DNA of 49,038 nucleotides from Candidatus Flemingiibacterium sp. (GTDB lineage Bacteria; Bacillota; Clostridia; Oscillospirales; CAG-272). Under the pieces are notes generated by a model. It ran no database searches. It saw nothing but the letters and a program-made list of their open reading frames with translations, and was not told the origin of the DNA. Within the stretch, counting starts at the first letter, position 1. Every line of letters begins with the position of its first letter. Shown here in pieces: positions 28,168 to 48,545 of the stretch. The stretch covers positions 1 through 49,038 of the forward strand of contig JAZNLM010000004.1 of NCBI GenBank assembly GCA_045579105.1. Reading direction: 5' to 3'. Made by a program: the position numbers and the translations under genes.

Positions 28168-28851
28168 ATGAATCGTCATTCCATTCCCAAGGCGACTCTC
28201 GGTCGACTTCCACAATATCTGCAATATTTGAAAAAAAAAAGCGATGAACACGGTAATACGATTTCCGCAGCTGCGATTGCTCGAGCGCTAGCGCTGGGCG
28301 AAGTACAGGTCCGCAAGGATCTTGCAACAGTAAGCGGTGCCGGTAAACCCAAAGTCGGTTATGAGTGCAGAGAGCTTATAGATGCTCTTGAATGCTGTCT
28401 CGGATATAATGAGTTCACAAATGCGATTTTAGTAGGGGCTGGAAAACTCGGAAAAGCACTTCTTGATTATGATGGTTTCGAAGAGTTCGGTGTTAAAATA
28501 ATTGCAGGCTTTGACTGTAACGAAAAAGTACTTCAGCCTGGAAAGAACGCCAAGCTAATTCTTCCTATTTCCGAGCTTCCGGATTACTGTTCAGAAAATA
28601 ATGTGAAGCTTGGAATCATAACCGTCGGTCAAGGTTCGGCGCAGGAAGTCTGCAACATACTGGTGGCAAACAGAATCACTGCAATATGGAACTTTGCTCC
28701 ATGTGTACTGAATGTACCGCACGGCGTAGTACTAAAGCAGGAAAATCTGGCGCTTTCTCTGGCGTATCTCAATATCTCACTTGCAAACAGTACACGAGCA
28801 GTACAGGAAGAAACTCATAATAATCAGGGAGATAATCAGTATGAAGCTTGA
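28168..28851 (+). CDS. rex: redox-sensing transcriptional repressor Rex
   Basis: IPKATLGRLPQY, QVRKDL, G.PKVGY, VGAGKLGKAL, AIWNFAP. Confidence 0.93.
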   Translation: MNRHSIPKATLGRLPQYLQYLKKKSDEHGNTISAAAIARALALGEVQVRKDLATVSGAGKPKVGYECRELIDALECCLGYNEFTNAILVGAGKLGKALLDYDGFEEFGVKIIAGFDCNEKVLQPGKNAKLILPISELPDYCSENNVKLGIITVGQGSAQEVCNILVANRITAIWNFAPCVLNVPHGVVLKQENLALSLAYLNISLANSTRAVQEETHNNQGDNQYEA

Positions 28852-29227
28852 CAGGGTGATAGCATTAAGATATTGATAAGACTATCTACCGTGACGGTGA
28901 TAGATGTATCAAGGCTTTCAGTTCCAACTATTCGGCTGACGTTCTTAACGAGGCTCTCACTCAGGCAAGAATCGAAGAAACCGGGATTAACATTCCAAAG
29001 ATTTTAGAGTTTGCAATGTTCGATGGAAAGTGGACAATTGTTTTCGAATATATCAAGTGGAAAACGCTTGAACAGCTTATGGAAGAGAATTCAAAAAAAA
29101 GAGTGGCACCTAGAAACAGTATGTTCATAAGTGGATGCCTATAGTCGCCGCTTCTCAATCGGTTAAAGGTAACCAAAGAGAACGCGAGTTTTTGATGAGT
29201 TGGATCGACGTTGTCGATTATCAGTAA
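28841..29227 (+). pseudogene. APH/Ser-Thr-kinase-like phosphotransferase pseudogene
   Basis: MKLDRVIA/KTIYRDGD.CIK..LNEAL.QARIEETG.NIPKILE..EYI joined to KWMPIVAASQSVKG..REFL.SW.DVVDYQ*; frameshifts, HGD catalytic core absent. Confidence 0.75.
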
Positions 29228-29301
29228 ATTAAAGTCTATATGCGTAGTAGGAGATGCTCCTGCCGCAGCTAAAATCAAAATAAATTATGTGAGGTAAAAA
29301 C

Positions 29302-29544
29302 ATGCTTAAAATCACAGTTTGTATCGGAAGCTCGTGCCACATTAAAGGCTCCCGTCAGGTAGTTGAACAGCTTCAGCACTTAATTTCCGAAAATAATATA
29401 GGAGATAAGGTTGAGCTCGGAGGCACCTTTTGCATGGGCAAATGTCAGCAGGGTGTATGCGTAACAGTGGGCGAAGAATTTCATTCCGTAACTCCCGAAA
29501 ATGTTGGTCAGTTTTTTGCCGAGGAAGTTTTAGCAAAGGTATAA
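29302..29544 (+). CDS. HfsA-like thioredoxin-fold 2Fe-2S ferredoxin (copy 1)
   Basis: VCIGSSCHIKGS...FCMGKC. Confidence 0.85.
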   Translation: MLKITVCIGSSCHIKGSRQVVEQLQHLISENNIGDKVELGGTFCMGKCQQGVCVTVGEEFHSVTPENVGQFFAEEVLAKV

Positions 29545-29547
29545 GAT

Positions 29548-29811
29548 ATGCTGTTTATTCAAGTTTGTGTGGGCTCTTCGTGCCATCTCAAAGGCTCGCA
29601 GGATATAGTGGAACTTTTGCAGAAGGCTGTGGAAGAACACCATATTGAAGATGAGGTTGTTCTTTCGGGCAGCTTCTGTATTGGAAAATGTAATCGCGTT
29701 GGCGTTACAGTTCAGGTAAACGATGATATTCACATCGGTGTTACAAGAGAAAATTTCAGAGAGTTTTTTAAAGAAAACATACTCGACATAATTGAAAGCG
29801 AAAGGAAGTGA
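29548..29811 (+). CDS. HfsA-like thioredoxin-fold 2Fe-2S ferredoxin (copy 2)
   Basis: VCVGSSCHLKGS...FCIGKC. Confidence 0.85.
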   Translation: MLFIQVCVGSSCHLKGSQDIVELLQKAVEEHHIEDEVVLSGSFCIGKCNRVGVTVQVNDDIHIGVTRENFREFFKENILDIIESERK

Positions 29812-29816
29812 TGGCT

Positions 29817-31496
29817 ATGCCAAACTGTTTGACGCTGAAAAAATCCAACTGTAAAAACTGTTACAAGTGTATCCGTCACTGTCCTGTAAAAGCGATTCGC
29901 TTCTCGGGCAATCAGGCGCATATCATAGGCAATGAGTGTATTCTATGCGGTCACTGTTTTGTTGTTTGCCCCCAAAACGCCAAGGAAATTGTAGACGGCA
30001 CCGAAAAGGCGCGCGTTCTTCTCCAAAGCGGAGATCCGGTTTACGTAAGCCTGGCGCCTTCGTTTATAGCAAACTACAGTGGTGTCGGAATAGCGTCAAT
30101 GCAACGCGCTCTCAAAAAGCTCGGTTTTGCCGACGTTGAGGAAACGGCGCTCGGAGCAACTATCGTCAAGACCGAATACGAGCGTATGCTTCACGAAGAG
30201 GACCGCGACATTATAATCACATCCTGTTGTCATTCGGTAAATCTGCTTATTCAAAAGTACTTCCCTTCTTGCCTCGAGTACCTTGCCGATGTTATGTCGC
30301 CGATGCAGGCACACTGCGCTGACATAAAGAGGCGTTATCCCAATGCTAAAACTGTGTTTATAGGTCCGTGTGTTGCAAAGAAGGATGAAGCGGAGTATTA
30401 CGAAGGTTTGGTTGATGTTGCTCTTACGTTTGAGGAACTTACAAATTGGCTTAAAGCCGAGGGAATTGAACTCGAGCAGGACATTGATAACACACCGGAC
30501 AGTCGCGCACGTTTCTTCCCAACAACCGGCGGTATACTTAAAACAATGACGAAAAACGAGCCGGGGTATACATATCTCGCACTGGATGGTGTTGAAAACT
30601 GTATCGCAGCGTTAAAAGATATTGAAAGCGGCAAAATACACAAATGCTTTATTGAAATGTCTGCTTGTGTAGGCAGTTGTATAGGCGGTCCCGTTATGGA
30701 AAAGTATCACCGTGCTTCTCCTATCAAGGATTATATAACGATATCCAATTATGCAGGCGATAAAGACTTTGATGTAGCACAGCCCGCACCTATGGATCTT
30801 AAAAAGCATTTCACAATGATCGAGCACAGACTCGCACAGCCATCTGAAGCCGAAATTACGACGGTACTCCGCCAAATGGGTAAGTTCAAGGCGGCTGATG
30901 AGCTTAACTGCGGCTCATGCGGATATAATTCCTGCCGTGAAAAGGCAATTGCCATTATTCAGGGCAAGGCGGAAAGCTCTATGTGTCTTCCCTTCCTTAA
31001 AGACAAAGCAGAAAGCTTCTCCGACACTATCGTTAAAAACACTCCGTACGGACTTATCGTCCTTAACGAAAATTTTGAGGTTCAGCAGGTCAACGCGTCA
31101 GCGCGTAAGATCATGAATATCCGCGCGGAATCCGACGTGCTCGGAGAACCGGTTATCCGAATTCTCGACCCTACTGTCTTTGTAGAAGTAAAAAACAGCG
31201 GTCACGGAGTAAGAGATCAGCTTGTATACCTTGCGGAATACAAGCGCTATGTCGAGCAGACGGTTGTTTACGATCCGGAATCACGTTTGTTTATTGGAAT
31301 TATGCGCGATATAACCGACGAAGAAGCTGATCGCGAGAAAAAAGCTCTAATCAACAAGCAGACTATCGAGGTTGCCAACACAGTCGTTGAAAAGCAGATG
31401 CGAATTGTTCAGGAGATTGCATCCTTGCTCGGTGAAACTGCAGCCGAAACAAAGATAGCTCTTACTAAGCTAAAGGAGTCTATCGGCGATGAATGA
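29817..31496 (+). CDS. hfsB: sensory group C [FeFe]-hydrogenase with FeS and PAS domains (HfsB/HydS)
   Basis: two 4Fe-4S motifs, TSCCHS, GPCVAKKDE, EMSACVGSCIGG, NCGSCGY.SC, PAS region, KQMRIVQEIASLLGE. Confidence 0.88.
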   Translation: MPNCLTLKKSNCKNCYKCIRHCPVKAIRFSGNQAHIIGNECILCGHCFVVCPQNAKEIVDGTEKARVLLQSGDPVYVSLAPSFIANYSGVGIASMQRALKKLGFADVEETALGATIVKTEYERMLHEEDRDIIITSCCHSVNLLIQKYFPSCLEYLADVMSPMQAHCADIKRRYPNAKTVFIGPCVAKKDEAEYYEGLVDVALTFEELTNWLKAEGIELEQDIDNTPDSRARFFPTTGGILKTMTKNEPGYTYLALDGVENCIAALKDIESGKIHKCFIEMSACVGSCIGGPVMEKYHRASPIKDYITISNYAGDKDFDVAQPAPMDLKKHFTMIEHRLAQPSEAEITTVLRQMGKFKAADELNCGSCGYNSCREKAIAIIQGKAESSMCLPFLKDKAESFSDTIVKNTPYGLIVLNENFEVQQVNASARKIMNIRAESDVLGEPVIRILDPTVFVEVKNSGHGVRDQLVYLAEYKRYVEQTVVYDPESRLFIGIMRDITDEEADREKKALINKQTIEVANTVVEKQMRIVQEIASLLGETAAETKIALTKLKESIGDE

Positions 31497-32661: not shown

Positions 32662-32681
32662 CAGATAGGAGAAAGAAAAAA

Positions 32682-33629
32682 ATGCAAAAGAAAGTTACAA
32701 TTATTGGCGCAGGCGCTGTTGGCTCTACTACCGCATTTGCACTGCTTGCACGCGGTGCGGCTTCCAAAGTCGTTTTAATTGACGTAAACACCGAAAAAGC
32801 GCTTGGCGAAGCACTTGACATCAAGCAAGCTACCCCCATTATCGGCAACTGCGATATTTACGCCGGAAGCTATGCTGATGCTGTTGACTCTGATGTTGTT
32901 ATCATCACATCGGGAATCGGAAGAAAACCCGGTCAGACGCGTCTTGAGCTTGTTCAGACCAATGTTGGTATCATTAAGGGCATCGCGCCTGAAATTGTCA
33001 AGGCGGCGCCGAACGCTCTCTACATACTTGTTGCTAACCCCGTTGATATTCTTACTTATGCATTCTTAAAATACACCGGTCTTCCGAAAAATCAGGTTTT
33101 CGGTACCGGTACTGTGCTCGACACTATCCGTCTTCGCACCCGCCTTGCGGAAATTTACAATGTAAACAAGCAGCAGGTTCACGCCAACGTGCTCGGCGAG
33201 CACGGCGACACGTCGTTTGTTGCCTGGTCCACCGCAACAATCGCAGGTGTTCCGCTGTCAGAGTATAACAGCGCTATTGCATCTTCCTATAAAATTCCCA
33301 ATGAGTACAAGCGCGAGGACGTTGAAACTTACGTGAGAAAGTCCGGCGGAAAAATCATTGCCCGCAAGGGTTGCACCGTATACGGTATCGGAATGACCTC
33401 AACTCATATTGTGCAGGCAATCAGCGGCAGCGCGGAAACTGCTATGACTGTATCCTCGCTTCACGAAGGTGAATACGGAATCAGCGATGTTTGCCTCAGC
33501 TCGCTTTCTCTTGTTGACCACACCGGCGTTCGTTCCATTCTCACACAGAAGCTCACAGACGAGGAGCATAAGAAGCTGCTTCAGTCCGCAGAAGCTCTTA
33601 AGGCTGTTATAAACAGCGTAACCTTCTAA
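32682..33629 (+). CDS. mdh: LDH/MDH family dehydrogenase, probably malate dehydrogenase
   Basis: GAGAVG, GIGRKPGQTRLEL (Arg at LDH position 102), NPVD, LDTIR, GEHGDT; context with fumC and pckG. Confidence 0.75.
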   Translation: MQKKVTIIGAGAVGSTTAFALLARGAASKVVLIDVNTEKALGEALDIKQATPIIGNCDIYAGSYADAVDSDVVIITSGIGRKPGQTRLELVQTNVGIIKGIAPEIVKAAPNALYILVANPVDILTYAFLKYTGLPKNQVFGTGTVLDTIRLRTRLAEIYNVNKQQVHANVLGEHGDTSFVAWSTATIAGVPLSEYNSAIASSYKIPNEYKREDVETYVRKSGGKIIARKGCTVYGIGMTSTHIVQAISGSAETAMTVSSLHEGEYGISDVCLSSLSLVDHTGVRSILTQKLTDEEHKKLLQSAEALKAVINSVTF

Positions 33630-33641
33630 AAAGGAAAATTT

Positions 33642-35072
33642 ATGAGAAAATTTGATACAAAAGTACAGCATCTTAAATATAAGGTACTACGCGAGGTTGC
33701 CAAGCTCGCATGGAACGATACTCTGCTCGATAATATGATGGATATTCCGAAAAGACTTATTTCGGGCAAAGAACCCACGATGCGCTGCTGTGTTTATAAA
33801 GAACGTGCAATCCTCGGAGAACGCGTAAAGATTGCTATGGGCGGCGACAAAAGCAATCCCAACGTAATTGAGGTTATCGAAATTGCCTGTGATGAATGTC
33901 CTGTAGGCGGATTTGAAGTAACACACGCCTGCCGCGGATGCCTCGCTCACCGCTGTGAGGATGTATGTAAATTCGGCGCAATTTCTTTCGATCACAACCA
34001 TGTGGCACACATTGATAAGTCAAAGTGTAAGGAATGCGGCGCATGCGCAAGGGTTTGTCCTTATACTGCAATAGTCAGCCGTAAGCGTCCGTGTCAGAAC
34101 GCCTGCAAAGTCAAGGCTATTTCTATGAATGAAGATAAGGCGGCGGCTATTGATAATTCAAAGTGTATTCAGTGCGGCGCATGCGTATATCAGTGTCCGT
34201 TCGGAGCAATCACTGATAAGTCGTACATAGTCAATGCCATTGACATACTCAAAAAGAGTGAACGAAATACACCCAGCGGTAGCTATAAAGTCTATGCCGT
34301 TGTTGCACCGTCAATTTCGAGTCAGTTCTCCTATGCAAAGCTCGGTCAAGTTGTTACGGGCCTTAAAAAGCTTGGCTTCCACGATGTTATAGAAGCGGCA
34401 CTCGGAGCTGATATGGTTGCAATGGCTGAGGCAAAGGAGATTTCCGAAAAGGGCCTTCTCACAAGTTCCTGCTGTCCATCTTTCGTTCAGTATATAAAGT
34501 CCGCATTCCCTGACCTTGTAGAGCACATCTCGCATAATATGTCACCTATGGCGGTGCTCGCAAAGTATATTAAGCAAACAACTCCAAACGCCAAGGTTAT
34601 TTTCATTGGTCCATGCACCTCTAAGAAGGCCGAAGCGCAGCTTGAAAGTGTGAAACCCTACGTTGACACGGTTCTTACCTTCGAAGAACTTCAGGCGCTG
34701 TTTGACAGCCGCGATATCGATATCGCATCGCTTGAAGTTGGCGTGCTTGATAACGCATCTTATTTCGGACGAATTTTTGCACGAAGCGGCGGTCTTTCCG
34801 ATGCGGCAGCTCAGGCAATCAAGGAACAGAACATCGGCTTCGAGTTGAAGCCGGTTGTGTGTGACGGAATTGAAGCTTGCCGTATGGCGCTGTTAAAACT
34901 CAGCAAGGGTGTGCTTGACGGAAACTTTATCGAAGGTATGGCATGTGTAGGCGGTTGTATCGGCGGTGCAGGATGTCTTACACACGGCGAAAAGAACAAG
35001 TCTGAGGTTGACAAATACGGCAAAGAAGCACTTGAAAAAACTATCGGAGATGCCGTATCGGTTCTGAAATAA
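33642..35072 (+). CDS. hfsD: group B ferredoxin-type [FeFe]-hydrogenase (HfsD/HydA2-like)
   Basis: RCCVYKERAI, multiple 4Fe-4S motifs, TSSCCPSF, GPCTSKKAE, EGMACVGGCIGG. Confidence 0.9.
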   Translation: MRKFDTKVQHLKYKVLREVAKLAWNDTLLDNMMDIPKRLISGKEPTMRCCVYKERAILGERVKIAMGGDKSNPNVIEVIEIACDECPVGGFEVTHACRGCLAHRCEDVCKFGAISFDHNHVAHIDKSKCKECGACARVCPYTAIVSRKRPCQNACKVKAISMNEDKAAAIDNSKCIQCGACVYQCPFGAITDKSYIVNAIDILKKSERNTPSGSYKVYAVVAPSISSQFSYAKLGQVVTGLKKLGFHDVIEAALGADMVAMAEAKEISEKGLLTSSCCPSFVQYIKSAFPDLVEHISHNMSPMAVLAKYIKQTTPNAKVIFIGPCTSKKAEAQLESVKPYVDTVLTFEELQALFDSRDIDIASLEVGVLDNASYFGRIFARSGGLSDAAAQAIKEQNIGFELKPVVCDGIEACRMALLKLSKGVLDGNFIEGMACVGGCIGGAGCLTHGEKNKSEVDKYGKEALEKTIGDAVSVLK

Positions 35073-35110
35073 TAATTCTCAATTAAATATATTTGAAAGG
35101 GTAATTAAAG

Positions 35111-37287: not shown

Positions 37288-37288
37288 A

Positions 37289-42119: not shown

Positions 42120-42945
42120 AATGAATGAAACTTTAATTCCCGTTGTGGGCGTTATCACTGATGTCCGCATAGATACCCCCGACATCAAGACCTTCCGTGT
42201 CGTTACTCCTGACGGTAAAAAGCCGTTTGATCACAGACCGGGACAATGTGCTATGCTGTCTGTTCCCGGTGTCGGCGAAGCGATGTTTTCCATCACCTCT
42301 TCCCCCACAAACACAGAGTATATGGAGTTTTCCATTAAGAAATGCGGATGTGTTACCGAGTGGCTTCACGCCGCAGAAGTAGGTCAGATGATTACCGTCC
42401 GCGGTCCTTACGGTAAACCCTTCCCTGTTGACGACGTATTCGCAGGCCACGATATGCTCTTTATTGCCGGAGGTGTTGGACTCGCTCCGCTTCGCTCGGT
42501 TATAAACTACTGCCGTCACTACCGTGACAGATACGGCCGCATCGATATTGTTTACGGCTCACGTTCAAAGGACGATCTTCTTGATTACAAGGAAATCATA
42601 GAAGAATGGCAGAATGACGAAAACGTTCACGTTCATCTGACGATCGACCGTGAGCAGGAGGGTTGGGACGGACACGTTGGCTTCGTTCCGAACTACGTCA
42701 AGGAGCTTGGATTTGATACTAATAAAATGGCAGTTCTTTGCGGACCTCCGATCATGATTAAATTCACATTAGAAGGGCTTTCTGCTCTCGGCTTTGATAA
42801 GACGCAGGTATATACAACTCTTGAACTTCGTATGAAGTGCGGTGTCGGCAAGTGCGGTCGCTGCAACGTTGGTGCGAAGTATGTATGCAAGGACGGTCCG
42901 GTTTTCCGCTGTGATGAGTTGGATGAGCTTCCGGATGAATATTGA
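42112..42945 (+). CDS. flxA: FlxA/AsrB-like FAD/NAD-binding oxidoreductase with 2Fe-2S
   Basis: PGQ, VRGPYG, AGGVGLAPLRS, CGPPIM, MKCGVGKCGRC, VCKDGPVF. Confidence 0.85.
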   Translation: MAEMNETLIPVVGVITDVRIDTPDIKTFRVVTPDGKKPFDHRPGQCAMLSVPGVGEAMFSITSSPTNTEYMEFSIKKCGCVTEWLHAAEVGQMITVRGPYGKPFPVDDVFAGHDMLFIAGGVGLAPLRSVINYCRHYRDRYGRIDIVYGSRSKDDLLDYKEIIEEWQNDENVHVHLTIDREQEGWDGHVGFVPNYVKELGFDTNKMAVLCGPPIMIKFTLEGLSALGFDKTQVYTTLELRMKCGVGKCGRCNVGAKYVCKDGPVFRCDELDELPDEY

Positions 42946-42966
42946 TAATTAGGAGAATTGAACACT

Positions 42967-43641
42967 ATGGAAAATATGGTGAATATTTACCTCTACGGTA
43001 AAAAATACGAAGTTCCGGCCAGCCTTACCATTATAAACGCCATGGAATACGCAGGATACCAGCTGGTTCGCGGAGTTGGCTGCCGCTGCGGCTTCTGCGG
43101 CGCGTGTGCTACTATATACCGCATAAAGGGACAGCAGGAACTTAAGACTTGCCTTGCTTGCCAGACCAAGGTTGAAGATAATATGTATATTGCAACTCTT
43201 CCCTTCTTCCCGCTTGTAAAGCAGCCCTATGACATTAAGAAGGTAAAGCCCACCGAGCAGATTATGATGCAGCTCTATCCCGAAATTTACGCTTGTATCG
43301 GCTGCAACGCCTGCACTAAGGCCTGCACTCAGGAGCTTAACGTAATGCAGTATATCGCATATGCGCAGAGAGGCGACTTTGAAAAGTGCGCTGAAGAATC
43401 CTTCGACTGTGTAATGTGCGGTGTATGCTCTTCACGTTGCCCCGCAGGTATTACTCATCCGCAGGTAGGTCTTCTCGCAAGACGTCTTAACGGAAAGTAT
43501 CTTGCGCCCGAAACAAAACATCTTCTTGACCGCGTTGCCGAGATCGAAGCCGGTGATTGCGAGGCGGCTCTTCAGGATATTATGAAGAAAACTGCCGAAG
43601 AACTCAAAGAGATGTATAACAACCGCGATTTCGAGAAATAA
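42967..43641 (+). CDS. fumarate reductase Fe-S subunit (2Fe-2S + 2x4Fe-4S)
   Basis: GCRCGFCGAC..CLAC, CIGCNACTKAC, CVMCGVCSSRCP; adjacent to flavoprotein. Confidence 0.8.
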   Translation: MENMVNIYLYGKKYEVPASLTIINAMEYAGYQLVRGVGCRCGFCGACATIYRIKGQQELKTCLACQTKVEDNMYIATLPFFPLVKQPYDIKKVKPTEQIMMQLYPEIYACIGCNACTKACTQELNVMQYIAYAQRGDFEKCAEESFDCVMCGVCSSRCPAGITHPQVGLLARRLNGKYLAPETKHLLDRVAEIEAGDCEAALQDIMKKTAEELKEMYNNRDFEK

Positions 43642-43654
43642 GGAGGGCTGACAA

Positions 43655-45304
43655 ATGTATACTAAAGAAATGCTTGAATCCATCAAAAAGGTGGAAGCAA
43701 CCCGTGATGCGCGTCTTCAGGCGGTACTTGCAGGCAACCATCCCCGCCGTATGACTGCCGAAGAAAAGGATCAGGTCCTTCTCGAAAACCATCCCGATCA
43801 TATTAAGTCCCAGTTTGCAGAGCTTGCTATCGGTCCCAACAAGGGCGAAAAGGTTCCGCTTGAACTCGCTGAAATTCTACAGGCAAATCCCAGAGTTAAT
43901 CCTGCTGATATTGATCTTACCAAAATTGACTACGATGTTGACGTTCTCGTAATCGGCGGCGGCGGAGCAGGTTCTGCGGCAGCTATTATGGCTCACGAAA
44001 ACGGCGCAAACGTAATGATAGTTACCAAGCTCCGTCATGGTGGCGCTAACACTATGATGGCAGAGGGCGGTATTCAGGCGGCTGATAAGCCTAACGACAG
44101 CCCCGCACAGCACTATCTCGACGTTATGGGCGGCGGTCACTTTAAGAACGTTCCCGAGCTTGTTTACAAGCTTGTAAACGATGCTCCCGGATGCATCAAG
44201 TGGCTCAATGACCTTGGTGTAATGTTCGATAAGGAAGCTGACGGTACTATGGTAACCACCCACGGCGGCGGTACGTCCAGAAAGCGTATGCACGCTTGTA
44301 AGGACTACTCCGGTGCGGAGATAATGAGAGTTCTCCGTGACGAGGTTCAGAACAGACAGATTCCCGTCGTTGATTTCACATCGGCTATCGAAATAATCAA
44401 GGACGAAAACGGTAAGGCTGCAGGTGCAGTTCTTATGAACATGGAAACCAAGGAACTGCTTATTGCAAAGGCAAAGACTGTAGTAATCGCAACGGGCGGT
44501 GCGGGCCGCATGCACTACCAAGGCTTCCCGACATCCAACCACTACGGCGCAACCGCAGATGGACTTGTTCTTGCCTACAGAGCAGGCGCTCCTCTGCTTT
44601 ACGCTCACACGCTTCAGTATCACCCCACCGGTGCGGCGTTCCCCTCGCAGATATTTGGTGCACTCGTAACCGAAAAGGTTCGTTCTATCGGTGCACAGCT
44701 TATCAATGCCAACGGTGAAGCATTTATGTATCCGCTTGAAACCCGTGACGTATGCGCATCGAGCGTTATACGCGAGTGCCGCAGAGGCAACGGTGTCGAC
44801 ACCTTCGACGGCGGTCAGGGTATTTGGCTTGACTCTCCGATGATTGACCTTATCCACGGCGAGGGCACTATTGAGAAAAGAATCCCCGCTATGCTTCGCA
44901 TGTACCTCAAGTACGGTATCGATATGCGTAAGCAGCCGATTCTTATTTACCCCACTCTCCACTATCAGAACGGTGGTATCAAGATCGGCGAGAACGGCAT
45001 GTCCGAGGTTGAAAACCTCTTTGTTGCAGGTGAAGCGGTCGGCGGTATTCACGGAGAGAACAGACTCATGGGTAACTCTTTGCTTGATATCATCGTATTC
45101 GGTCGCAACGCAGGAGTTAACGCGGCTACTGCGGCAAAGAAGACTGACGGCACAGCAAAGCTTTCCCTCTCGCACGTTGATGATTTTGTTAAGGAAATGG
45201 CAGATGCAGGCATTAAGACTGATGTTGTTTCTCCGAAGCTTCTCCCTCGTTACACCCACGGAAATCCTGTGTACGATGAGCCCAACGCGAAGCTTATGAA
45301 ATAA
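43655..45304 (+). CDS. frdA: soluble fumarate reductase flavoprotein (FrdA/TfrA-like)
   Basis: GGGGAG, AEGG, ATGG, QYHPTG, TEKVR, TRD, HYQNGG, HGENRLMGNSL. Confidence 0.85.
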   Translation: MYTKEMLESIKKVEATRDARLQAVLAGNHPRRMTAEEKDQVLLENHPDHIKSQFAELAIGPNKGEKVPLELAEILQANPRVNPADIDLTKIDYDVDVLVIGGGGAGSAAAIMAHENGANVMIVTKLRHGGANTMMAEGGIQAADKPNDSPAQHYLDVMGGGHFKNVPELVYKLVNDAPGCIKWLNDLGVMFDKEADGTMVTTHGGGTSRKRMHACKDYSGAEIMRVLRDEVQNRQIPVVDFTSAIEIIKDENGKAAGAVLMNMETKELLIAKAKTVVIATGGAGRMHYQGFPTSNHYGATADGLVLAYRAGAPLLYAHTLQYHPTGAAFPSQIFGALVTEKVRSIGAQLINANGEAFMYPLETRDVCASSVIRECRRGNGVDTFDGGQGIWLDSPMIDLIHGEGTIEKRIPAMLRMYLKYGIDMRKQPILIYPTLHYQNGGIKIGENGMSEVENLFVAGEAVGGIHGENRLMGNSLLDIIVFGRNAGVNAATAAKKTDGTAKLSLSHVDDFVKEMADAGIKTDVVSPKLLPRYTHGNPVYDEPNAKLMK

Positions 45305-45364
45305 TTTCGCACAGTGTACTGTACGAATGCGTTTCTATAGTAACGCCTAAAGAATTAAACAAAC

Positions 45365-45397
45365 ACAAGGCCTTCTCAATATAGGAGAGGGCTTTGT
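45365..45397 (+). terminator. stem-loop after frdA (weak terminator or stability hairpin)
   Basis: acaaggccttctc...gagagggctttgt, poor U-tract. Confidence 0.45.
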
Positions 45398-45475
45398 CAG
45401 GGTTTAAATCTATAAGTGTAAATAATTTTCAGATTATTACAAAAATCAACAGCAAAAATATTTCAGGAGAAAAAA

Positions 45476-46705
45476 ATGAAGATTTTTGAATTTTTTGACG
45501 GAAAATTTAATCTTAATATAAGCGGAATTTCCTTTCTCGTATTTTCCGTACTAGCTATTGCCGCAGTTGGATATTTACTTGGCAGAGTAACTATCAAAGG
45601 TGTTAGCCTTGGTACCGCGGGTGTTTTCCTTATCGCTTTACTCTACGGTTGCCTCTTCTACGGGAATCTTGGAGCACAGACTGCTGAATATACAACAAAC
45701 GCTCTGAAAATAATCGAAAATATCGGTCTTATGCTCTTCGTAACATCGGTAGGATTCATAGCAGGTCCCAAGTTCTTTGGAAATCTTAAAAAGAACTTCA
45801 AGACCTACATCCTCCTCGGCCTTTTGATCATCGTGTCCGGTGCATTGGTATGTGCAGGCTGCATTGCATTTGCGAAAGTTACCATGAAAGATGTTCCCGT
45901 AGAGGAGCTTACGGCTATTATGACCGGTCTCTTCTCAGGCGCACTTACTTCTACCCCCGCCTTTTCTGCGGCTAAAGAGGCTATTGGCAGTGAATACGCA
46001 AGCTACGTAGCCGTTGGAAACGGCATCGCATATATCTTCGGCGTCATCGGAGTTGTTCTCTTTGTTCAGCTTATTCCGAAGTTTGTAAAAGCTGATATGG
46101 CAAAGGAACGTGCGAAGCTCGATGAAAGTGACGGAAACGCTGAAGACCCTGTAGATGCGGCTGTCGCGGAGAAGCTTATAACCATTGATTCCTTCGGAAT
46201 TGCCCCCTTCGCAATTGCCTCTATCATTGGTCTTCTCGTCGGAAGCATCAAAATCGGCGCATTCTCGCTGACCACCACCGGCGGTTATCTTCTTATTTCG
46301 CTTGTATTCGGACACTTCGGACGTATGGGCAAGATAAACCTTATGCCCCCCGCTGCAACTCTTAGGGTTTTCCGTGAGTTCGGACTTATGCTTTTCCTCA
46401 TCGGTGCAGGAATTGCAGGCGGCGCAAAATTTATCGAGTGCTTCCAGCCGGTTTACTTCCTCTATGGTGCACTTATGACTATCATTCCTATGATAGTTGG
46501 TTTCTTATTTGCAAAGTACGTTCTTAAATTAAGCCTTCTTAACAATCTCGGCTCTATCACGGGCGGCATGACTTCCACACCCGCGCTTGGAACCCTTATC
46601 AATGTAGCAGGCACTGAAGACGTTGCAGCGGCTTATGCGGCAACTTATCCTATCGCACTTGTCGCTGTTGTACTGGCCTCGCAATTCCTTATTATGATAT
46701 TTTAA
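45476..46705 (+). CDS. AspT/YidE/YbjL family transporter, probable succinate exporter
   Basis: duplicated domains with GALTSTPAF and GGMTSTPAL, GLMLFV..VG..AGPKF, YAATYP. Confidence 0.85.
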   Translation: MKIFEFFDGKFNLNISGISFLVFSVLAIAAVGYLLGRVTIKGVSLGTAGVFLIALLYGCLFYGNLGAQTAEYTTNALKIIENIGLMLFVTSVGFIAGPKFFGNLKKNFKTYILLGLLIIVSGALVCAGCIAFAKVTMKDVPVEELTAIMTGLFSGALTSTPAFSAAKEAIGSEYASYVAVGNGIAYIFGVIGVVLFVQLIPKFVKADMAKERAKLDESDGNAEDPVDAAVAEKLITIDSFGIAPFAIASIIGLLVGSIKIGAFSLTTTGGYLLISLVFGHFGRMGKINLMPPAATLRVFREFGLMLFLIGAGIAGGAKFIECFQPVYFLYGALMTIIPMIVGFLFAKYVLKLSLLNNLGSITGGMTSTPALGTLINVAGTEDVAAAYAATYPIALVAVVLASQFLIMIF

Positions 46706-46739
46706 ATAGATTTCAAGATTAAACATCAGAGGTATAGTT

Positions 46740-48545
46740 ATGCTTAAATTTGAAAACAAAGCTTTGACCGATTCCAAGTGGATTCTTTCCTGGATCGAAG
46801 AAATGGCAGGCATCACACAGCCTGACAAAATAGTTTGGATTGACGGCTCCGAAGAACAAGCTGAGGCTCTCCGCGCCGAGGCTTGCTCAACCGGCGAGCT
46901 TCAAAAGCTCAACGAAGAGCTTCTCCCTAACTGCTATCTTCACAGAACCGCTGAAAACGACGTTGCACGTGTTGAGGGCAGAACATATATCTGCACCCCC
47001 ACCAAGGAAGAAGCAGGCAATATCAACAACTGGATGGATCCCACTGAAATGTATGCAAAGCTTTATAAGCTTTACACAGGTTCTATGAAGGGCAGAACTA
47101 TGTACGTAATCCCATATTCTATGGGCGTTGTTGGCTCTGACTTCGCAAAGTACGGTATTGAGCTTACTGATTCCATCTACGTAGTTCTCAATATGCTTAT
47201 TATGACTCGCGTGGGCACCGATGTTCTCAAAGCACTTGGTGACAGCCCTGATTATATCAAGGGACTTCACGCAAAGGCTGACATCGACGAGGATAACCGC
47301 TATATTGTTCACTTCCCGCAGGATAACACTATTATGTCCGTAAACTCCGGCTACGGAGGAAACGTACTTCTCGGTAAGAAGTGCTTCGCGCTTCGTATCG
47401 CTTCCTATCTCGGACGCAAGGAGGGTTGGATGGCTGAACATATGCTTATCCTCGGCCTTGAAAATCCAGAGGGTGAAATCAAGTATATCAGCGCGGCATT
47501 CCCATCTGCTTGCGGTAAAACGAACCTCGCTATGCTCATTCCGCCGGAGATTTTTAAATCCAAGGGCTACAAGGTATGGTGCGTAGGCGACGATATCGCA
47601 TGGCTCCGTGTAGGTAAAGACGGAAGGCTTTGGGCTGTTAACCCCGAGAACGGCTTCTTCGGTGTTGCTCCCGGAACTAACGACAAGTCTAACCCCATTG
47701 CACTCGCTACAACTATGCGAGATACTATCCACACCAACGTTGTCCACGATCTCGATAACAACACCGTATGGTGGGAAGGTCTTAACGATAATCCCCCCAC
47801 AAACGCTATCGACTGGAGAGGAAATAAGTGGGATTATACCAAGTATGACAAGAACAACAAAGCGGCAACCGCAGGCGCACATCCCAACTCCCGTTTTACC
47901 GCTCTTGCAAAGAACTGTCCCTGCATTTCTTCCGAGTTCAACAGCATTACCGGTGTACCGATTTCCGCTATCGTATTCGGCGGCAGACGTGCCAAGACAG
48001 CCCCTCTGGTTTATCAGTCCTTTAACTGGCAGCACGGTACTTTTGTCGGCTCTATTATGGCATCCGAAACCACAGCTGCAGCAGCAGGCGCTGTCGGCAT
48101 AGTACGCCGTGATCCTATGGCAATGCGTCCTTTCGTTGGTTACAATATGGGCGATTATTTCAAGCATTGGCTTGACATGGGGAAGGTTATCCCTAATGCT
48201 CCAAAGATTTTCCACGTTAACTGGTTCAGAACCGACAGCGAAGGCCACTTCATCTGGCCCGGCTTTGGCGATAATATGAGGGTTCTCAACTGGATCACCG
48301 ACCGTTGCGACGGAAAGGCAGACGCAGTTGAAACTCCTATCGGATACGTTCCTGTTGCAGAGGATATCAACATCGAGGGACTTGATATTACAATCGATAC
48401 CATCCGTGAGCTTCTGACGGTTGACGTTGAGAGTTGGAAGGAAGACGTTAAGAATATCAAAGAATTCTACGCCCTTGTTGGTGAGCATGTTCCTGCAGAG
48501 CTTTATGAAGAACTTGCAGCGCTCGAGGCAAGGCTTAACGGATAA
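46740..48545 (+). CDS. pckG: phosphoenolpyruvate carboxykinase (GTP)
   Basis: DVARVE, GYGGNVLLGKKCFALR, FPSACGKTNLAM, VGDDIAW, NPENGFFGVAPGT, HPNSRF, WPGFGDN. Confidence 0.96.
   Translation: MLKFENKALTDSKWILSWIEEMAGITQPDKIVWIDGSEEQAEALRAEACSTGELQKLNEELLPNCYLHRTAENDVARVEGRTYICTPTKEEAGNINNWMDPTEMYAKLYKLYTGSMKGRTMYVIPYSMGVVGSDFAKYGIELTDSIYVVLNMLIMTRVGTDVLKALGDSPDYIKGLHAKADIDEDNRYIVHFPQDNTIMSVNSGYGGNVLLGKKCFALRIASYLGRKEGWMAEHMLILGLENPEGEIKYISAAFPSACGKTNLAMLIPPEIFKSKGYKVWCVGDDIAWLRVGKDGRLWAVNPENGFFGVAPGTNDKSNPIALATTMRDTIHTNVVHDLDNNTVWWEGLNDNPPTNAIDWRGNKWDYTKYDKNNKAATAGAHPNSRFTALAKNCPCISSEFNSITGVPISAIVFGGRRAKTAPLVYQSFNWQHGTFVGSIMASETTAAAAGAVGIVRRDPMAMRPFVGYNMGDYFKHWLDMGKVIPNAPKIFHVNWFRTDSEGHFIWPGFGDNMRVLNWITDRCDGKADAVETPIGYVPVAEDINIEGLDITIDTIRELLTVDVESWKEDVKNIKEFYALVGEHVPAELYEELAALEARLNG

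What the first reader, a model, noticed from the sequence alone, without database searches (positions are those of the whole stretch)
28168..48545. Rex-headed super-operon fusing H2-sensing and H2-evolving [FeFe]-hydrogenases with a complete Hdr-Flx-coupled succinate pathway
Seen: rex, kinase pseudogene, two hfsA-like genes, hfsB, hfsC, mdh, hfsD, fumC, hdrBCA, flxDCBA and frdB/A, all on one strand with gaps of about 75 bp or less (many overlaps), then a YidE exporter and pckG. Known: hfsABCD (Thermoanaerobacterium saccharolyticum) and the rex/kinase/adhE/hydS/hydA2 cluster (Ruminococcus albus) tie H2 sensing to ethanol. A Flx-Hdr/fumarate reductase operon is known from Pseudoclostridium thermosuccinogenes. 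Inference: this genome joins the two modules, with succinate (PEP-OAA-malate-fumarate-succinate-export) in place of ethanol as the NADH sink. Bifurcated reduced ferredoxin could be vented as H2 by HfsD, making a self-contained redox-controlled switch.
Basis: partly seen in the sequence, partly recalled or inferred. Interest (0 to 1): 0.8.

Follow-up and report, generated by a model that had tools for sequence, protein, structure and literature searches.

The report
Hydrogen-sensing, hydrogen-making succinate fermentation operon
An uncultured animal-gut bacterium carries, in one 20-kb run of same-strand genes, a redox repressor, a hydrogen sensor, a hydrogen-making enzyme and a whole succinate pathway built around a probable electron-splitting fumarate reductase, and relatives across the Clostridia link the same genes in several other orders.

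Summary
Window 28168-48545 carries, all on the + strand, rex, a dead APH-type kinase, two hfsA, hfsB (sensory [FeFe] hydrogenase with PAS), hfsC (PP2C), an LDH-type malate dehydrogenase, hfsD (group B [FeFe] hydrogenase), fumC, hdrBCA, flxDCBA, frdBA, an AAE-family exporter and GTP-PEPCK. Gaps are at most 38 nt from hfsA1 to frdA. The only clear terminator follows pckG.

The hfsD|fumC junction is very probably not an assembly chimera. Six other genomes carry the same junction, each with a different 27-42 nt spacer. Reads, however, did not show a bridging contig in this sample.

The joining is not unique to this genome. Congeners keep the two modules apart, but HfsD lies beside the Flx-Hdr-Frd succinate operon in at least five other gene orders across the order and the class.

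Function is inferred, not shown. Rex probably opens the operon at high NADH. Flx-Hdr-Frd probably splits electrons from 2 NADH between fumarate and ferredoxin. HfsD probably vents the ferredoxin electrons as H2, and HfsB/HfsC sense H2.

I rate it a new variant of known kinds. My literature searches found no paper describing this linkage.

The parts
28110..28146 (+). Promoter-like site (TTCCCA-17-TAAAAT with TG) overlapping a candidate Rex operator at 28129-28146 (GTGATAAAATATTAACGA), 21 nt before the rex ATG
   Evidence: promoter scan; the operator has 3 mismatches to the recalled Rex consensus, and the window as a whole is not enriched (15 hits against 12.2 expected); the block is conserved in G004; 7 of 32 rex upstream regions carry a site with at most 3 mismatches at the same place, 19-26 nt before the ATG; 8 of 32 regions have such a site against 71 of 2000 background windows.
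28168..28851 (+). rex, redox-sensing repressor
   Evidence: NF003994, 234 bits (cut-off 130); Put_DNA-bind_N + CoA_binding.
28841..29224 (+). Remnant of an APH/RIO-type small kinase (pseudogene)
   Evidence: residues 12-88 and 201-249 of the G004 orthologue remain; the core is deleted, the frames differ and there is a stop; the intact orthologue matches Pfam APH; the remnant alone has no Pfam match.
29302..29544 (+). hfsA1, thioredoxin-like [2Fe-2S] protein (80 aa)
   Evidence: PF01257, 6e-08.
29548..29811 (+). hfsA2, second thioredoxin-like [2Fe-2S] protein (87 aa)
   Evidence: PF01257, 7e-09.
29808..31496 (+). hfsB, HydS-type sensory [FeFe] hydrogenase: H-domain + Cx2Cx4C FeS domain + PAS
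   Evidence: TSCC kept, GPC (Gly at CpI M353), EMSAC (Ser at CpI M497). Positions as given in PMC10055695.
31489..32661 (+). hfsC, PP2C/SpoIIE phosphatase with a 170-aa C-terminal part of no known family
   Evidence: PF07228, 9e-14; no Pfam match for residues 218-390.
32682..33629 (+). LDH-type malate dehydrogenase, the paralogue embedded in the hfs cluster (mdh*)
   Evidence: Arg at the specificity position; 89% identical to the G004 hfs-embedded copy, 51-58% to the mdh that precedes fumC elsewhere.
33642..35072 (+). hfsD, group B [FeFe] hydrogenase
   Evidence: TIGR04105, 573 bits (cut-off 450). SCCP, GPC and EGMAC motifs.
35073..35110 (+). hfsD|fumC junction, a 38-nt spacer with a GAAAGGG ribosome-binding-like motif
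   Evidence: the same junction occurs in L064, L099, L105, L106, L107 and L116, with 27-42 nt spacers of different sequence.
35111..36487 (+). fumC, class II fumarate hydratase
   Evidence: TIGR00979, 708 bits (cut-off 665).
36505..37287 (+). hdrB-like subunit, two CCG motifs
37289..37675 (+). hdrC-like 4Fe-4S subunit
37693..39690 (+). hdrA-like flavoprotein (presumed bifurcating FAD)
   Evidence: NF040770, 780 bits over 1-641 of 777 positions, below the cut-off of 1100.
39678..40115 (+). flxD, MvhD-like [2Fe-2S] subunit
   Evidence: PF02662, 2e-55.
40103..41101 (+). flxC, Fe-S subunit (longest ORF starts at 40001; likelier start 40103)
41094..42119 (+). flxB, Fe-S subunit (AsrA / sulfhydrogenase-beta-like)
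42112..42945 (+). flxA, FAD/NAD(P)-binding + 2Fe-2S subunit (NADH entry)
42958..43641 (+). frdB, 2Fe-2S + 2x4Fe-4S subunit (resembles the N-terminal part of TfrB)
43655..45304 (+). frdA, soluble fumarate reductase flavoprotein (TfrA-like), with a 95-aa N-terminal extension of no known family
   Evidence: (NF004900, 337 bits, below the cut-off of 718).
45365..45397 (+). 13-bp hairpin in the 171-nt frdA-transporter spacer: a possible partial terminator or processing site
   Evidence: spacer fold -42.2 kcal/mol, z -5.4, 0 of 200 shuffles as good; the terminator scan listed no + strand site in this spacer (no U-run directly after the stem).
45476..46705 (+). AspT/YidE/YbjL (AAE) family transporter, putative succinate exporter
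   Evidence: It follows frdA in many relatives.
46740..48545 (+). pckG, GTP-dependent PEP carboxykinase
   Evidence: NF003253, 847 bits (cut-off 504).
48563..48594 (.). Bidirectional intrinsic terminator after pckG
   Evidence: 13-14 pairs, 7 GC, T-runs on both strands.

Best explanation
This is a real, about 20.4-kb, co-directional gene cluster of an uncultured gut bacterium of the class Clostridia. It combines four things:
1. a Rex repressor at its head;
2. an H2-sensing module (HfsB with PAS, the HfsC PP2C phosphatase, two small HfsA 2Fe-2S proteins), whose partner kinase is dead;
3. a ferredoxin-dependent group B [FeFe] hydrogenase, HfsD;
4. the reductive branch from PEP to succinate: GTP-PEPCK, LDH-type MDH, FumC, a soluble FrdAB wired to HdrABC-FlxABCD, and an AAE-type exporter.

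Most likely mechanism (inferred):
- At a high NADH/NAD+ ratio, Rex leaves its operator at the rex promoter and the whole unit is transcribed.
- Oxaloacetate is reduced to malate and dehydrated to fumarate.
- Flx-Hdr-Frd oxidises 2 NADH. It sends one electron pair downhill to fumarate and one uphill to ferredoxin (flavin-based bifurcation at HdrA).
- HfsD re-oxidises that ferredoxin to H2. With Rnf (present in the genome), the ferredoxin loop can conserve energy.
- HfsB/HfsC report H2 partial pressure and tune the branch, because high H2 blocks ferredoxin re-oxidation and hence the bifurcating reductase.

Shown here: gene content, order, spacing, conservation of the junction, and recurrent linkage in other genomes.
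Inferred: co-transcription, Rex control, bifurcation, the direction of HfsD, and the target of HfsC.
For: Gene identities.

Transcription signals: spacing is -13 to +38 nt from hfsA1 to frdA. No intergenic + strand terminator lies between rex and frdA, and terminator-like hits are not above shuffles (26 against 20.9 +/- 5.0). A strong terminator lies right after pckG.

The junction is real:
- The same order...hfsC-mdh*-hfsD-fumC-hdrB..., occurs in G263 (98% complete) and in L099, L105, L106, L107 and L116, with different 27-42 nt spacers.
- Both flanks of the window's junction are closest to congener G004.
- The hfsD and fumC reading frames are intact up to the stop and from the ATG.

Recurrent linkage:
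- Order sample: of 401 genomes, 145 have HfsD and 101 have this FumC type. 52 have both, and in 14 of those 52 the genes lie within 15 kb on one strand. 11 of the 13 others were fetched and confirmed.
- Class sample: 97 of 399 genomes have this FrdA and 116 of 400 have HfsD. 54 have both, and 7 of those are linked. 6 of 6 fetched were confirmed.
- Gene orders seen: hfsA-D then mdh-fumC...; rex-hfsD-mdh-fumC...; ...frdA-(yidE)-rex-(hfsA)-hfsD; fumC-hfsD; and divergent rex-mdh-fumC / hfsA-hfsD.

Rex: a Rex-box-like palindrome lies at a fixed 19-26 nt before the rex ATG in 7 of 32 upstream regions.

Rest of the genome: RnfD, HydG and a split HydF, and no AdhE.

Literature:
- Group B [FeFe] hydrogenases re-oxidise ferredoxin and make H2 (PMC12578642, abstract and passages).
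- Flx-Hdr-linked fumarate reductase has been proposed for P. thermosuccinogenes, where added H2 abolished succinate formation (PMC7282089, passages).
- The R. albus sensory-hydrogenase cluster is 111-fold down in co-culture with the H2 consumer Wolinella succinogenes (PMC6776011).
Against: - No expression or enzyme data exist for this organism.
- The one read-laying run showed no listed contig bridging 34985-35110. In the best DNA run, one contig ends at 34984 and another starts exactly at 35111. The shared first 30 nt of fumC in relatives can explain the break, but bridging was not shown.
- In all 4 closest relatives whose fumC context could be read (G004, G014, G020, G001), fumC follows a different mdh, not hfsD. 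In 6 congeners the hfs cluster and the succinate operon lie on different contigs.
- The candidate Rex box in the window has 3 mismatches, and the motif is not enriched in the window.
- The kinase is a pseudogene, so a kinase/phosphatase switch of the R. albus type cannot work as drawn.
- A strongly folded spacer separates frdA from the exporter and pckG.
- HdrA and FrdA score below the NCBIfam cut-offs of their nearest named families.
- Bifurcation by Flx-Hdr-Frd is a proposal, even in the paper on P. thermosuccinogenes.
- HfsB keeps the Cys that T. maritima HydS lacks.
- A third hydrogenase-domain gene lies on C68, and 13% of the genome is unassembled, so HfsD need not be the only H2 outlet.
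Confidence: 0.6

Rival explanations
1. Adjacent but independent units. The hfs cluster (rex to hfsD) and the succinate operon (fumC to frdA or pckG) merely abut after a rearrangement. They are read from separate promoters and have no functional coupling beyond both serving fermentation.
For: In congeners the two units lie on separate contigs, and the G004 hfs cluster ends with its own terminator. A weak promoter-like match (9 of 12) lies at 35064-35093, across the junction. The P. thermosuccinogenes operon works without a neighbouring hydrogenase; its candidate hydrogenase locus tags are far from the operon's (PMC7282089, figure legend).
Against: The spacer is 38 nt with no terminator. The promoter-like count is at chance level (33 against 27.7 +/- 5.3). 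The operon's usual first gene, mdh, is missing and its role is taken by the mdh inside the hfs cluster. Linkage recurs in at least five further gene orders in several families and orders.
Confidence: 0.15
2. Assembly chimera. The metagenome assembler joined the end of the hfs cluster to the start of a conserved fumC belonging to the same or a related strain.
For: The genome is a 136-contig bin at 87% completeness. Logan contigs of the best DNA run break at 34984 and 35111. Relatives sharing the first 30 nt of fumC exist. hdrB, hdrC, flxC and flxB are oddly divergent from the sister species.
Against: A chimera needs a shared repeat, and the 38-nt spacer shares none with the region after hfsD in G004 or with the mdh-fumC spacers. 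Six other assemblies carry the same junction. Depth is alike on both sides (4.4 and 5.5). One Logan contig bridges a 'divergent' gene and a 'conserved' one (flxB/flxA, 41915-42714). No operon-type mdh is present anywhere in the bin.
Confidence: 0.07
3. H2-driven rather than H2-evolving. HfsD takes up H2, and its electrons (through ferredoxin, or directly through the MvhD-like FlxD and HdrA) drive fumarate reduction. This would be an analogue of the methanogen Mvh-Hdr complex with fumarate as the high-potential acceptor. HfsB would then switch the pathway on when H2 is available.
For: FlxD is an MvhD homologue and HdrA is HdrA2-like. The gut habitat is rich in H2. The hydrogenase is tightly linked to the hdr genes in many orders. 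Most natural succinate producers make more succinate with H2 (statement in PMC7282089).
Against: The complete FlxABC NADH-dehydrogenase module is kept in every operon seen. Characterised group B enzymes produce H2 from ferredoxin (PMC12578642). Added H2 abolished succinate formation in P. thermosuccinogenes (PMC7282089). No binding test was run.
Confidence: 0.1
4. The reductase module is not a bifurcating fumarate reductase. FrdAB could act on another substrate (it also resembles L-aspartate oxidase), or Flx-Hdr could reduce a thiol/disulfide carrier as in Desulfovibrio. In that case no ferredoxin is reduced, and HfsD serves pyruvate:ferredoxin oxidoreductase instead.
For: FrdA is below every NCBIfam cut-off and scores nearly as well on NadB models. 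It lacks the SdhA/FrdA C-terminal part and has an unknown 95-aa N-terminus. There is no biochemical proof in any organism (PMC7282089 words it as an assumption).
Against: It is constantly linked with mdh and fumC upstream and an AAE exporter downstream. The best model is the thiol:fumarate reductase TfrA. FrdB, HdrC and HdrB together cover the three parts of TfrB. The operon rose about 4-fold in P. thermosuccinogenes at 1% CO2, i.e. under CO2 limitation.
Confidence: 0.08

Closest known systems
'Succinate operon' of Pseudoclostridium thermosuccinogenes (fumarate hydratase, Flx-Hdr, fumarate reductase, putative transporter; PMC7282089)
   Same: Same composition and the same counts in the same order: 1 fumarate hydratase, 7 Flx-Hdr genes, 2 fumarate reductase genes, 1 putative transporter. 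Both organisms use a GTP-PEPCK and an MDH for the upstream steps.
   Different: Here the operon is preceded on the same strand by rex, the H2-sensor genes, an MDH and a hydrogenase, and followed by pckG. In P. thermosuccinogenes the candidate hydrogenases carry distant locus tags. Sequence identity to the P. thermosuccinogenes proteins was not measured.
Ruminococcus albus eight-gene cluster with sensory group C hydrogenase, ferredoxin-only hydrogenase and AdhE (PMC6776011; Zheng et al. 2014 could not be read)
   Same: Both have a sensory [FeFe] hydrogenase with PAS plus a Ser/Thr phosphatase, a ferredoxin-dependent H2-evolving hydrogenase and an NADH-consuming fermentation enzyme in one unit.
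   Different: The NADH sink is the succinate branch, not ethanol. The hydrogenase is group B, not A1. The kinase is a pseudogene. The unit has 19 genes and includes a presumed bifurcating complex.
hfsABCD operon of Thermoanaerobacterium saccharolyticum (PMC5707799)
   Same: Four-gene logic A-B-C-D. hfsB is the hydS homologue with PAS, and deleting single genes shifts fermentation products in ways that imply regulation. Many relatives of the window have a plain hfsA-B-C-D cluster.
   Different: hfsA is duplicated. An mdh is inserted between hfsC and hfsD, and the succinate operon is fused downstream. Homology to the T. saccharolyticum proteins themselves was not tested; only domain content was.
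FlxABCD-HdrABC of Desulfovibrio vulgaris (Ramos et al. 2015; seen only as a reference in PMC7282089, otherwise recalled)
   Same: Same seven subunit types: an NADH dehydrogenase module, an MvhD-like connector and an HdrABC-like module.
   Different: The presumed acceptor is fumarate through FrdAB, not DsrC disulfide. The gene order here is hdrBCA-flxDCBA.
Methanogen thiol:fumarate reductase TfrAB and the Mvh-Hdr complex (recalled; NCBIfam models)
   Same: FrdA is nearest to TfrA. FrdB, HdrC and HdrB match the N-terminal, middle and C-terminal parts of TfrB. FlxD is nearest to MvhD/VhuD.
   Different: TfrB is split into three genes. The electron donor module is an NADH dehydrogenase. The organism is a bacterium with no CoM/CoB.

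Membership tests
Rex redox-sensing repressor | Winged-helix N-terminus plus Rossmann NADH-binding domain; score above the curated cut-off | tested here: met
   PF06971 + PF02629; NF003994, 234 bits against 130.
Rex redox-sensing repressor | Operator of the type TTGTKAA-N4-TTMACAA near regulated promoters (consensus recalled) | tested here: inconclusive
   The site at 28129-28146 has 3 mismatches, and the window is not enriched. Sites with 1-2 mismatches lie at the same distance from the rex ATG in relatives.
Group C (HydS-type) sensory [FeFe] hydrogenase | H-cluster domain followed by an extra Cys motif and a PAS domain | tested here: met
   Fe_hyd_lg_C 77-295, FeS 366-395, PAS 407-502.
Group C (HydS-type) sensory [FeFe] hydrogenase | Altered second-sphere residues at CpI C299, M353 and M497 (PMC10055695) | tested here: inconclusive
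   Gly at M353 and Ser at M497 fit the sensory type. Cys at C299 is kept, unlike TmHydS (Ala). HfsD also has Gly at M353.
Group B [FeFe] hydrogenase | Score above the cut-off of TIGR04105; H-cluster motifs intact | tested here: met
   573 bits against 450 over 1-461 of 462 positions. SCCP, GPC, EGMACVGGC.
Group B [FeFe] hydrogenase | Ferredoxin-dependent H2 production | not testable with these tools
   Shown for other members in PMC12578642. Not assayed here.
hfsABCD operon | Contiguous hfsA-hfsB-hfsC-hfsD | tested here: not met
   an mdh lies between hfsC and hfsD, and hfsA is duplicated. 51 of the 80 closest HfsD loci have hfsC directly before hfsD, and 14 of 80 have this mdh.
FlxABCD-HdrABC complex | All seven subunit types encoded together | tested here: met
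   HdrA-like flavoprotein; HdrB with 2 CCG motifs; HdrC; MvhD-like FlxD; Fe-S FlxC and FlxB; FAD/NAD FlxA.
FlxABCD-HdrABC complex | NADH-dependent, bifurcating reduction of ferredoxin | not testable with these tools
   Proposal only (PMC7282089).
SdhA/FrdA fumarate reductase flavoprotein | FAD_binding_2 domain; score above a family cut-off; C-terminal domain; covalent-FAD His motif (recalled) | tested here: inconclusive
   PF00890, 1.6e-67. The best NCBIfam model, TfrA, gives 337 bits against 718. The C-terminal part is absent, the N-terminal 95 aa have no family, and no [ST]H[ST]xxAxGG motif is present.
LDH-like malate dehydrogenase | Arg instead of Gln at LDH position 102 (recalled) | tested here: met
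   GIGRKPGQTR in the window and in all 9 relatives aligned. NCBIfam LDH models pass their cut-offs and MDH models do not, so a name assigned by profile alone would be LDH.
AAE (AspT/YidE/YbjL) transporter | Two Asp-Al_Ex repeats | tested here: met
   2 stretches; TIGR01625, 139 bits against 72. It is 409 aa, shorter than the ~550-aa models. The substrate is not testable.

The most novel reading that the evidence does not exclude
Across the Clostridia, a soluble, Hdr-type, electron-bifurcating NADH:fumarate/ferredoxin oxidoreductase is genetically hard-wired to a group B [FeFe] hydrogenase. Fumarate reduction would then pull H2 out of NADH, giving a 'succinate plus H2' fermentation with energy conserved through ferredoxin and Rnf. 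In some lineages, this one included, the unit has come under the joint command of an NADH sensor (Rex) and a dedicated H2 sensor (HfsB/HfsC). The window's form may have arisen independently of the other direct fusions. This would make succinate output of gut Clostridia directly H2-gated, with consequences for hydrogen and methane budgets in ruminants.
Probability: 0.4. Interest if true: 0.75.

Novelty: new variant of a known kind. Interest (0 to 1): 0.62.

Why it matters
The bifurcating fumarate reductase proposed for one thermophile has no biochemical proof. It now turns out to be common: this FrdA type is present in 97 of 399 sampled genomes of the class.

Its repeated physical linkage to a ferredoxin-dependent hydrogenase is independent comparative evidence that it reduces ferredoxin. 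No paper found by my searches reports this link; I searched hfsB/hfsD, HydS plus R. albus, FlxABCD plus fumarate reductase, sensory hydrogenase plus succinate, electron bifurcation plus fumarate reductase, and Flx-Hdr.

The window offers a compact, fully specified test object: 19 genes, one promoter region and one terminator. With it one could ask how gut fermenters choose between H2, succinate and other sinks. That choice bears on methane formation in ruminants and on engineered succinate production.

The lineage is uncultured. The closest records are metagenome bins from ruminant guts, so testing needs heterologous expression or enrichment.

Tried and rejected
- **Reads.** No listed record bridged hfsD|fumC, so the junction is neither confirmed nor refuted by reads. 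An RNA-library contig (32608-32830, 1 mismatch) spans hfsC/mdh. The tool warns that this does not show a transcript, and I make no claim from it.
- **Rfam, 27000-49038.** No match.
- **Pfam on the kinase remnant alone.** Nothing. Only comparison with G004 identified it.
- **Pfam on other parts.** Nothing useful on the FrdA N-terminus, the FrdA C-terminal 49 aa, the HfsC C-terminal part or the FlxC N-terminal part.
- **Rex motif over the window.** At chance level.
- **HfsD tree (quick method; 97 rows after dropping identical rows, rows covering fewer than about 440 of the 476 query residues, and rows with stops).** The window lies outside the weakly supported group of six direct-fusion genomes. 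However, one origin is not ruled out, so I draw no conclusion on independent origins.
- **Leader fold, 27928-28050.** Not better than shuffles (z -0.76).
- **Zheng et al. 2014 on R. albus.** Not held. I relied on passages in PMC5707799 and PMC6776011.
- **The search of earlier findings.** Closed.
- **Not run.** I ran no structure prediction, complex prediction or large protein-database search, because the claims do not rest on binding or fold. I read no supplementary files; the expression tables of PMC7282089 and PMC6776011 may bear on operon limits.
- **Considered and rejected.** That 'mdh' is a lactate dehydrogenase (Arg at position 102). That flxD and flxC overlap by 115 nt.

Full report
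**1. What is there**

The window is the whole of contig C4 of a 1.68-Mb, 136-contig genome bin, 87% complete and 1.9% contaminated. From 28168 to 48545 every long ORF on the + strand has a clear family (ORFs; Pfam; NCBIfam):

- Rex.
- Two 80/87-aa thioredoxin-like [2Fe-2S] proteins (HfsA1, HfsA2).
- HfsB, a 562-aa protein with an [FeFe]-hydrogenase H-domain, an extra Cys motif and a PAS domain.
- HfsC, a PP2C/SpoIIE phosphatase.
- A 315-aa LDH/MDH-family enzyme.
- HfsD, a 476-aa group B [FeFe] hydrogenase (TIGR04105, 573 bits, cut-off 450).
- Class II fumarase.
- HdrB (two CCG motifs), HdrC, HdrA.
- FlxD (MvhD-like), FlxC, FlxB, FlxA.
- FrdB and FrdA, closest to the methanogen thiol:fumarate reductase TfrA but below its cut-off.
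- A 409-aa AAE/YidE-type transporter.
- GTP-PEPCK.

Spacers run from -13 to +38 nt between hfsA1 and frdA.

- The rex-hfsA1 gap is 450 nt.
- The gap from frdA to the transporter is 171 nt and folds into a strong hairpin (z -5.4; 0 of 200 shuffles as good).
- The apparent 115-nt flxD/flxC overlap disappears if flxC starts at ATG 40103, which has a GGAGG 8 nt upstream.

The 450-nt gap holds a dead kinase. The orthologue in congener G004 is an intact 249-aa APH/RIO-type kinase. In the window only residues 12-88 and 201-249 survive, in two frames and with a stop, and about 350 bp of core is deleted. No second copy is present in the bin.

The 'mdh' would be named L-lactate dehydrogenase by NCBIfam, since the LDH models pass their cut-offs and the MDH models do not. 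It nevertheless has Arg where LDHs have Gln102 (GIGRKPGQTR). By established knowledge (recalled) that residue marks LDH-like malate dehydrogenases.

**2. Transcription signals**

- A promoter-like site with an extended -10 lies at 28110-28138. The block around it is conserved in G004, although flanking intergenic sequence is not.
- Overlapping it, 21 nt before the rex ATG, is a Rex-box-like palindrome with 3 mismatches to the consensus I recalled. Over the whole window the motif is at chance level (15 hits against 12.2 expected).
- Among 32 distinct rex upstream regions from related loci, 8 have a site with at most 3 mismatches, against 71 of 2000 random windows. 7 of those 8 sites lie 19-26 nt before the ATG, and the best read GTGTTAAAATRTTAACAA. 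This is fair, not decisive, evidence for Rex autoregulation.
- Between rex and frdA no intergenic + strand terminator was found. Terminator-like and promoter-like counts do not exceed shuffles.
- The clearest terminator of the region, bidirectional with 13-14 pairs, sits 18 nt after pckG.

The simplest reading is one long unit from about 28,140 to 48,594, with a possible partial stop or processing site after frdA.

**3. Is the hfsD|fumC junction real?**

Evidence against the junction:
- In the 4 closest relatives whose fumC context could be read (G004, G014, G020, G001), fumC is preceded by a different mdh paralogue, not by hfsD.
- In G004 the cluster rex-kinase-hfsA1-A2-B-C-mdh-hfsD ends in a terminator and a convergent gene.
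- In the one read-laying run, the contigs of the best DNA run stop at 34984 and restart exactly at 35111. No listed record bridges the gap.

Evidence for the junction:
- The break at the fumC ATG is what a de Bruijn graph gives when co-resident relatives share the first 30 nt of fumC, and they do.
- The 38-nt spacer shares no repeat with either 'parental' context.
- Depth is alike on both sides.
- No operon-type mdh is present anywhere in the bin.
- Above all, the same order, hfsC-mdh*-hfsD-fumC-hdrB..., is present in six other assemblies: G263 (98% complete, a different coded family) and L099, L105, L106, L107 and L116. Their spacers are 27-42 nt, all differ in sequence, and each has its own ribosome-binding-like motif. 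L102 has hfsD running straight into hdrB.

I put the chimera reading at about 7%.

**4. How common is the linkage?**

*Genus.* 10 of 32 genomes have an HfsD homologue at E<=1e-60. In the six where both modules are visible (G002, G004, G015, G018, G022, G023) they lie on different contigs. The window's arrangement is therefore the exception among its nearest kin.

*Order, 401 sampled genomes.*
- 145 have HfsD (E<=1e-120) and 101 have this FumC type (E<=1e-200). 52 have both.
- In 14 of the 52, counting the window, the two genes lie within 15 kb on the same strand.
- I fetched 11 of the other 13 and confirmed them. G194 and G081 rest on coordinates only.

*Class, outside the order.*
- This FrdA type occurs in 97 of 399 genomes scored and HfsD in 116 of 400. 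54 have both and 7 are linked, counting the window.
- All 6 that I fetched were confirmed.

*The 80 closest HfsD loci in the species-representative collection.*

| Downstream of hfsD | Loci |
|---|---|
| fumC directly | 5 |
| hdrB directly | 1 |
| mdh then fumC | 4 |
| mdh, then cut | 1 |
| No succinate gene directly downstream | 55 |
| Too little downstream sequence to judge | 14 |

Of the 55, three carry the operon upstream or divergently.

*Gene orders seen.*
- (a) rex-(kinase)-hfsA1-A2-B-C-mdh*-hfsD-fumC-... : the window's type.
- (b) (rex)-hfsA-B-C-hfsD-mdh-fumC-hdr-flx-frd-(transporter): G336, G366, G585, G474.
- (c) (rex)-hfsD-mdh-fumC-... without the sensor: G378, G310, G141.
- (d) mdh-fumC-...-frdA-(transporter)-rex-(hfsA)-(hfsB-hfsC)-hfsD: G052, G396, G053, G107, G649, G677, G580.
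- (e) fumC-hfsD: G108.
- (f) divergent rex-mdh-fumC... and hfsA-hfsD: L149, L151.

The constant partner of the succinate operon is HfsD. Rex is frequent, and the sensor HfsB/HfsC is optional. These genomes are kin, so the counts are not independent events. Six different gene orders in several coded families and orders nevertheless cannot all be inherited from one arrangement.

**5. The embedded mdh**

The mdh between hfsC and hfsD is 89% identical to the copy in the same position in G004. It is only 51-58% identical to the mdh that precedes fumC in 8 relatives. 14 of the 80 closest HfsD loci have this paralogue before hfsD, and 6 of those 14 run on into fumC or hdrB.

In this lineage the H2-sensor cluster had therefore already acquired a malate dehydrogenase where R. 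albus has AdhE. The window's genome then lacks the operon's own mdh, although the bin is incomplete. The fusion is interleaved, not end to end.

Most genomes with architecture (a) have no kinase at all, with rex abutting hfsA1. More than 40 plain hfs clusters keep it. Loss of the kinase thus goes with this architecture.

**6. Mechanism (inference)**

Established properties of the families support these points:
- Rex releases DNA when NADH rises (summarised in PMC5707799).
- Group B [FeFe] hydrogenases re-oxidise ferredoxin and evolve H2 (PMC12578642).
- HydS-type proteins are slow hydrogenases with a PAS output (PMC10055695). HfsB has the sensory-type Gly and Ser at CpI positions 353 and 497, but keeps Cys299.

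Using recalled standard potentials (fumarate/succinate about +30 mV, NAD about -320 mV, ferredoxin about -450 mV or lower, H+/H2 -414 mV), the steps would be:

1. PEP + CO2 + GDP -> oxaloacetate + GTP.
2. Oxaloacetate + NADH -> malate, then fumarate.
3. Fumarate + 2 NADH + Fd(ox) -> succinate + 2 NAD+ + Fd(red).
4. Fd(red) + 2 H+ -> H2.

The branch would then consume 3 NADH per succinate and release one H2. With Rnf (RnfD present) returning ferredoxin electrons from pyruvate oxidation to NAD+, the energy of fumarate reduction could be conserved without quinones.

High H2 would stall step 4 and hence step 3, which gives an H2 sensor in the operon a rationale. It also fits the report that added H2 abolished succinate formation in P. 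thermosuccinogenes (PMC7282089).

The genome has HydG and a HydF split over a contig end, so the hydrogenases can be matured. No AdhE was found. None of these steps was observed. The target of HfsC is unknown, and the dead kinase means the R. albus scheme cannot simply be copied.

**7. Rivals**

Independent adjacent units (0.15), assembly chimera (0.07), H2 uptake feeding an Mvh-Hdr-like fumarate reductase (0.10), and a reductase that is not a bifurcating fumarate reductase (0.08). Each is set out with its evidence in its own section.

**8. Comparison and novelty**

Every module is known: the hfs operon, the R. albus sensor cluster, the P. thermosuccinogenes succinate operon, and Flx-Hdr. New here are four things:

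- their physical union;
- the embedded MDH paralogue;
- the decay of the kinase;
- beyond the window, the class-wide, many-ordered linkage of a group B hydrogenase with the Flx-Hdr-Frd operon, together with how widespread this FrdA type is.

Six literature searches over the held library found no paper describing this linkage. The 2019 preprint by Koendjbiharie and van Kranenburg, cited in PMC7282089, is not in the library and may discuss distribution. I rate the finding a new variant of a known kind, with interest 0.62.

**9. Limits**

- There are no expression, enzyme or culture data.
- Bridging reads were not shown.
- All related genomes are bins of uncultured bacteria, and the record titles are mostly ruminant-gut bins.
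- The Rex consensus, the Arg102 rule, the flavin-His motif, the redox potentials and the AAE-family link to succinate export are recalled, not tested.

Noticed in passing
window 36505-37675 and 40103-42119: Mosaic divergence inside the operon. HdrB, HdrC, FlxC and FlxB are only 62-71% identical to those of sister species G004/G014. Where both sister copies could be read (HdrB, HdrC, FlxB) they are 90-97% alike to each other. FumC, HdrA, FlxA, FrdB and FrdA are 92-97% identical to the sisters. The divergent genes are nearest to G036, from another coded family. A Logan contig bridges flxB/flxA, so this looks like recombination rather than misassembly.
   Followed up: partly
window 27894-28045: The strongest promoter-like site of the region (TTGACT-17-TATAAT with TG, 11 of 12) lies about 85 nt before a 12-pair terminator-like hairpin with a T-run, between lysR and rex. 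It could be a short transcript or an attenuated leader. There is no Rfam match, it is not conserved in G004, and the fold is not better than shuffles.
   Followed up: partly
window 28058-28105: Three ATCGAT-centred palindromes (TATCGATT...ATATCGATA...CGATATA) upstream of the rex promoter are conserved between the window and G004, while surrounding intergenic DNA is not. They may be a binding site for another regulator, such as the LysR-type gene just upstream (26893-27816).
   Followed up: no
G000 contigs C49 (L160), C19 (L161): The bin holds a second frdB-frdA pair (FrdA 65-67% identical) on a 2.25-kb contig and a second GTP-PEPCK (79%). These could be a second operon, or a contig from another organism in the bin.
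   Followed up: no
G000 contig C68 (L159) 1883-6323: A third hydrogenase-domain gene (453 aa, below all family cut-offs, with an RnfB-like Cys motif near the C-terminus) lies beside a NuoE/HoxE-like gene, two HATPase-type kinase-like genes and a PHP-like gene. It looks like the regulatory head of a bifurcating HydABC locus cut by the contig end.
   Followed up: partly
window 32657-33648 (joints): Contigs in two DNA runs skip the mdh exactly (hfsC joined to hfsD with 12-21 other letters between). Relatives with plain hfsC-hfsD therefore co-occur with the mdh-bearing form in the same samples.
   Followed up: no
L157 and L158: A contig filed under a Methanocorpusculum (archaeal) bin carries a bacterial rex-kinase-hfsA-D-mdh-fumC cluster. 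Its HfsD is almost identical to that of a Eubacteriales bin. It is probably a mis-binned contig.
   Followed up: no
L102: One genome has hfsD followed directly by hdrB, with no fumC in the locus held.
   Followed up: no
window 43655-43942 and 45155-45301: FrdA has a 95-aa N-terminal extension with no Pfam family. It ends about 48 aa after the part matching positions 6-411 of the 546-position TfrA model, so the usual C-terminal domain is missing or relocated.
   Followed up: partly
class-level sample: The soluble FrdA type, described in PMC7282089 as a unique fumarate reductase of P. thermosuccinogenes, is present at 64-79% identity in 97 of 399 sampled genomes of the class. Two genomes (G484, G445) have open frames of about 1000 aa at the match, which hints at fused forms.
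   Followed up: no
window 2246-16251: Upstream lies an ordinary capsule/cell-wall polysaccharide cluster (Polysacc_synt_2, LytR, CpsB, Wzz, tyrosine-kinase-like ATPase, UDP-GlcNAc 2-epimerase, ABC-2 transporter). It is unrelated to the finding.
   Followed up: no
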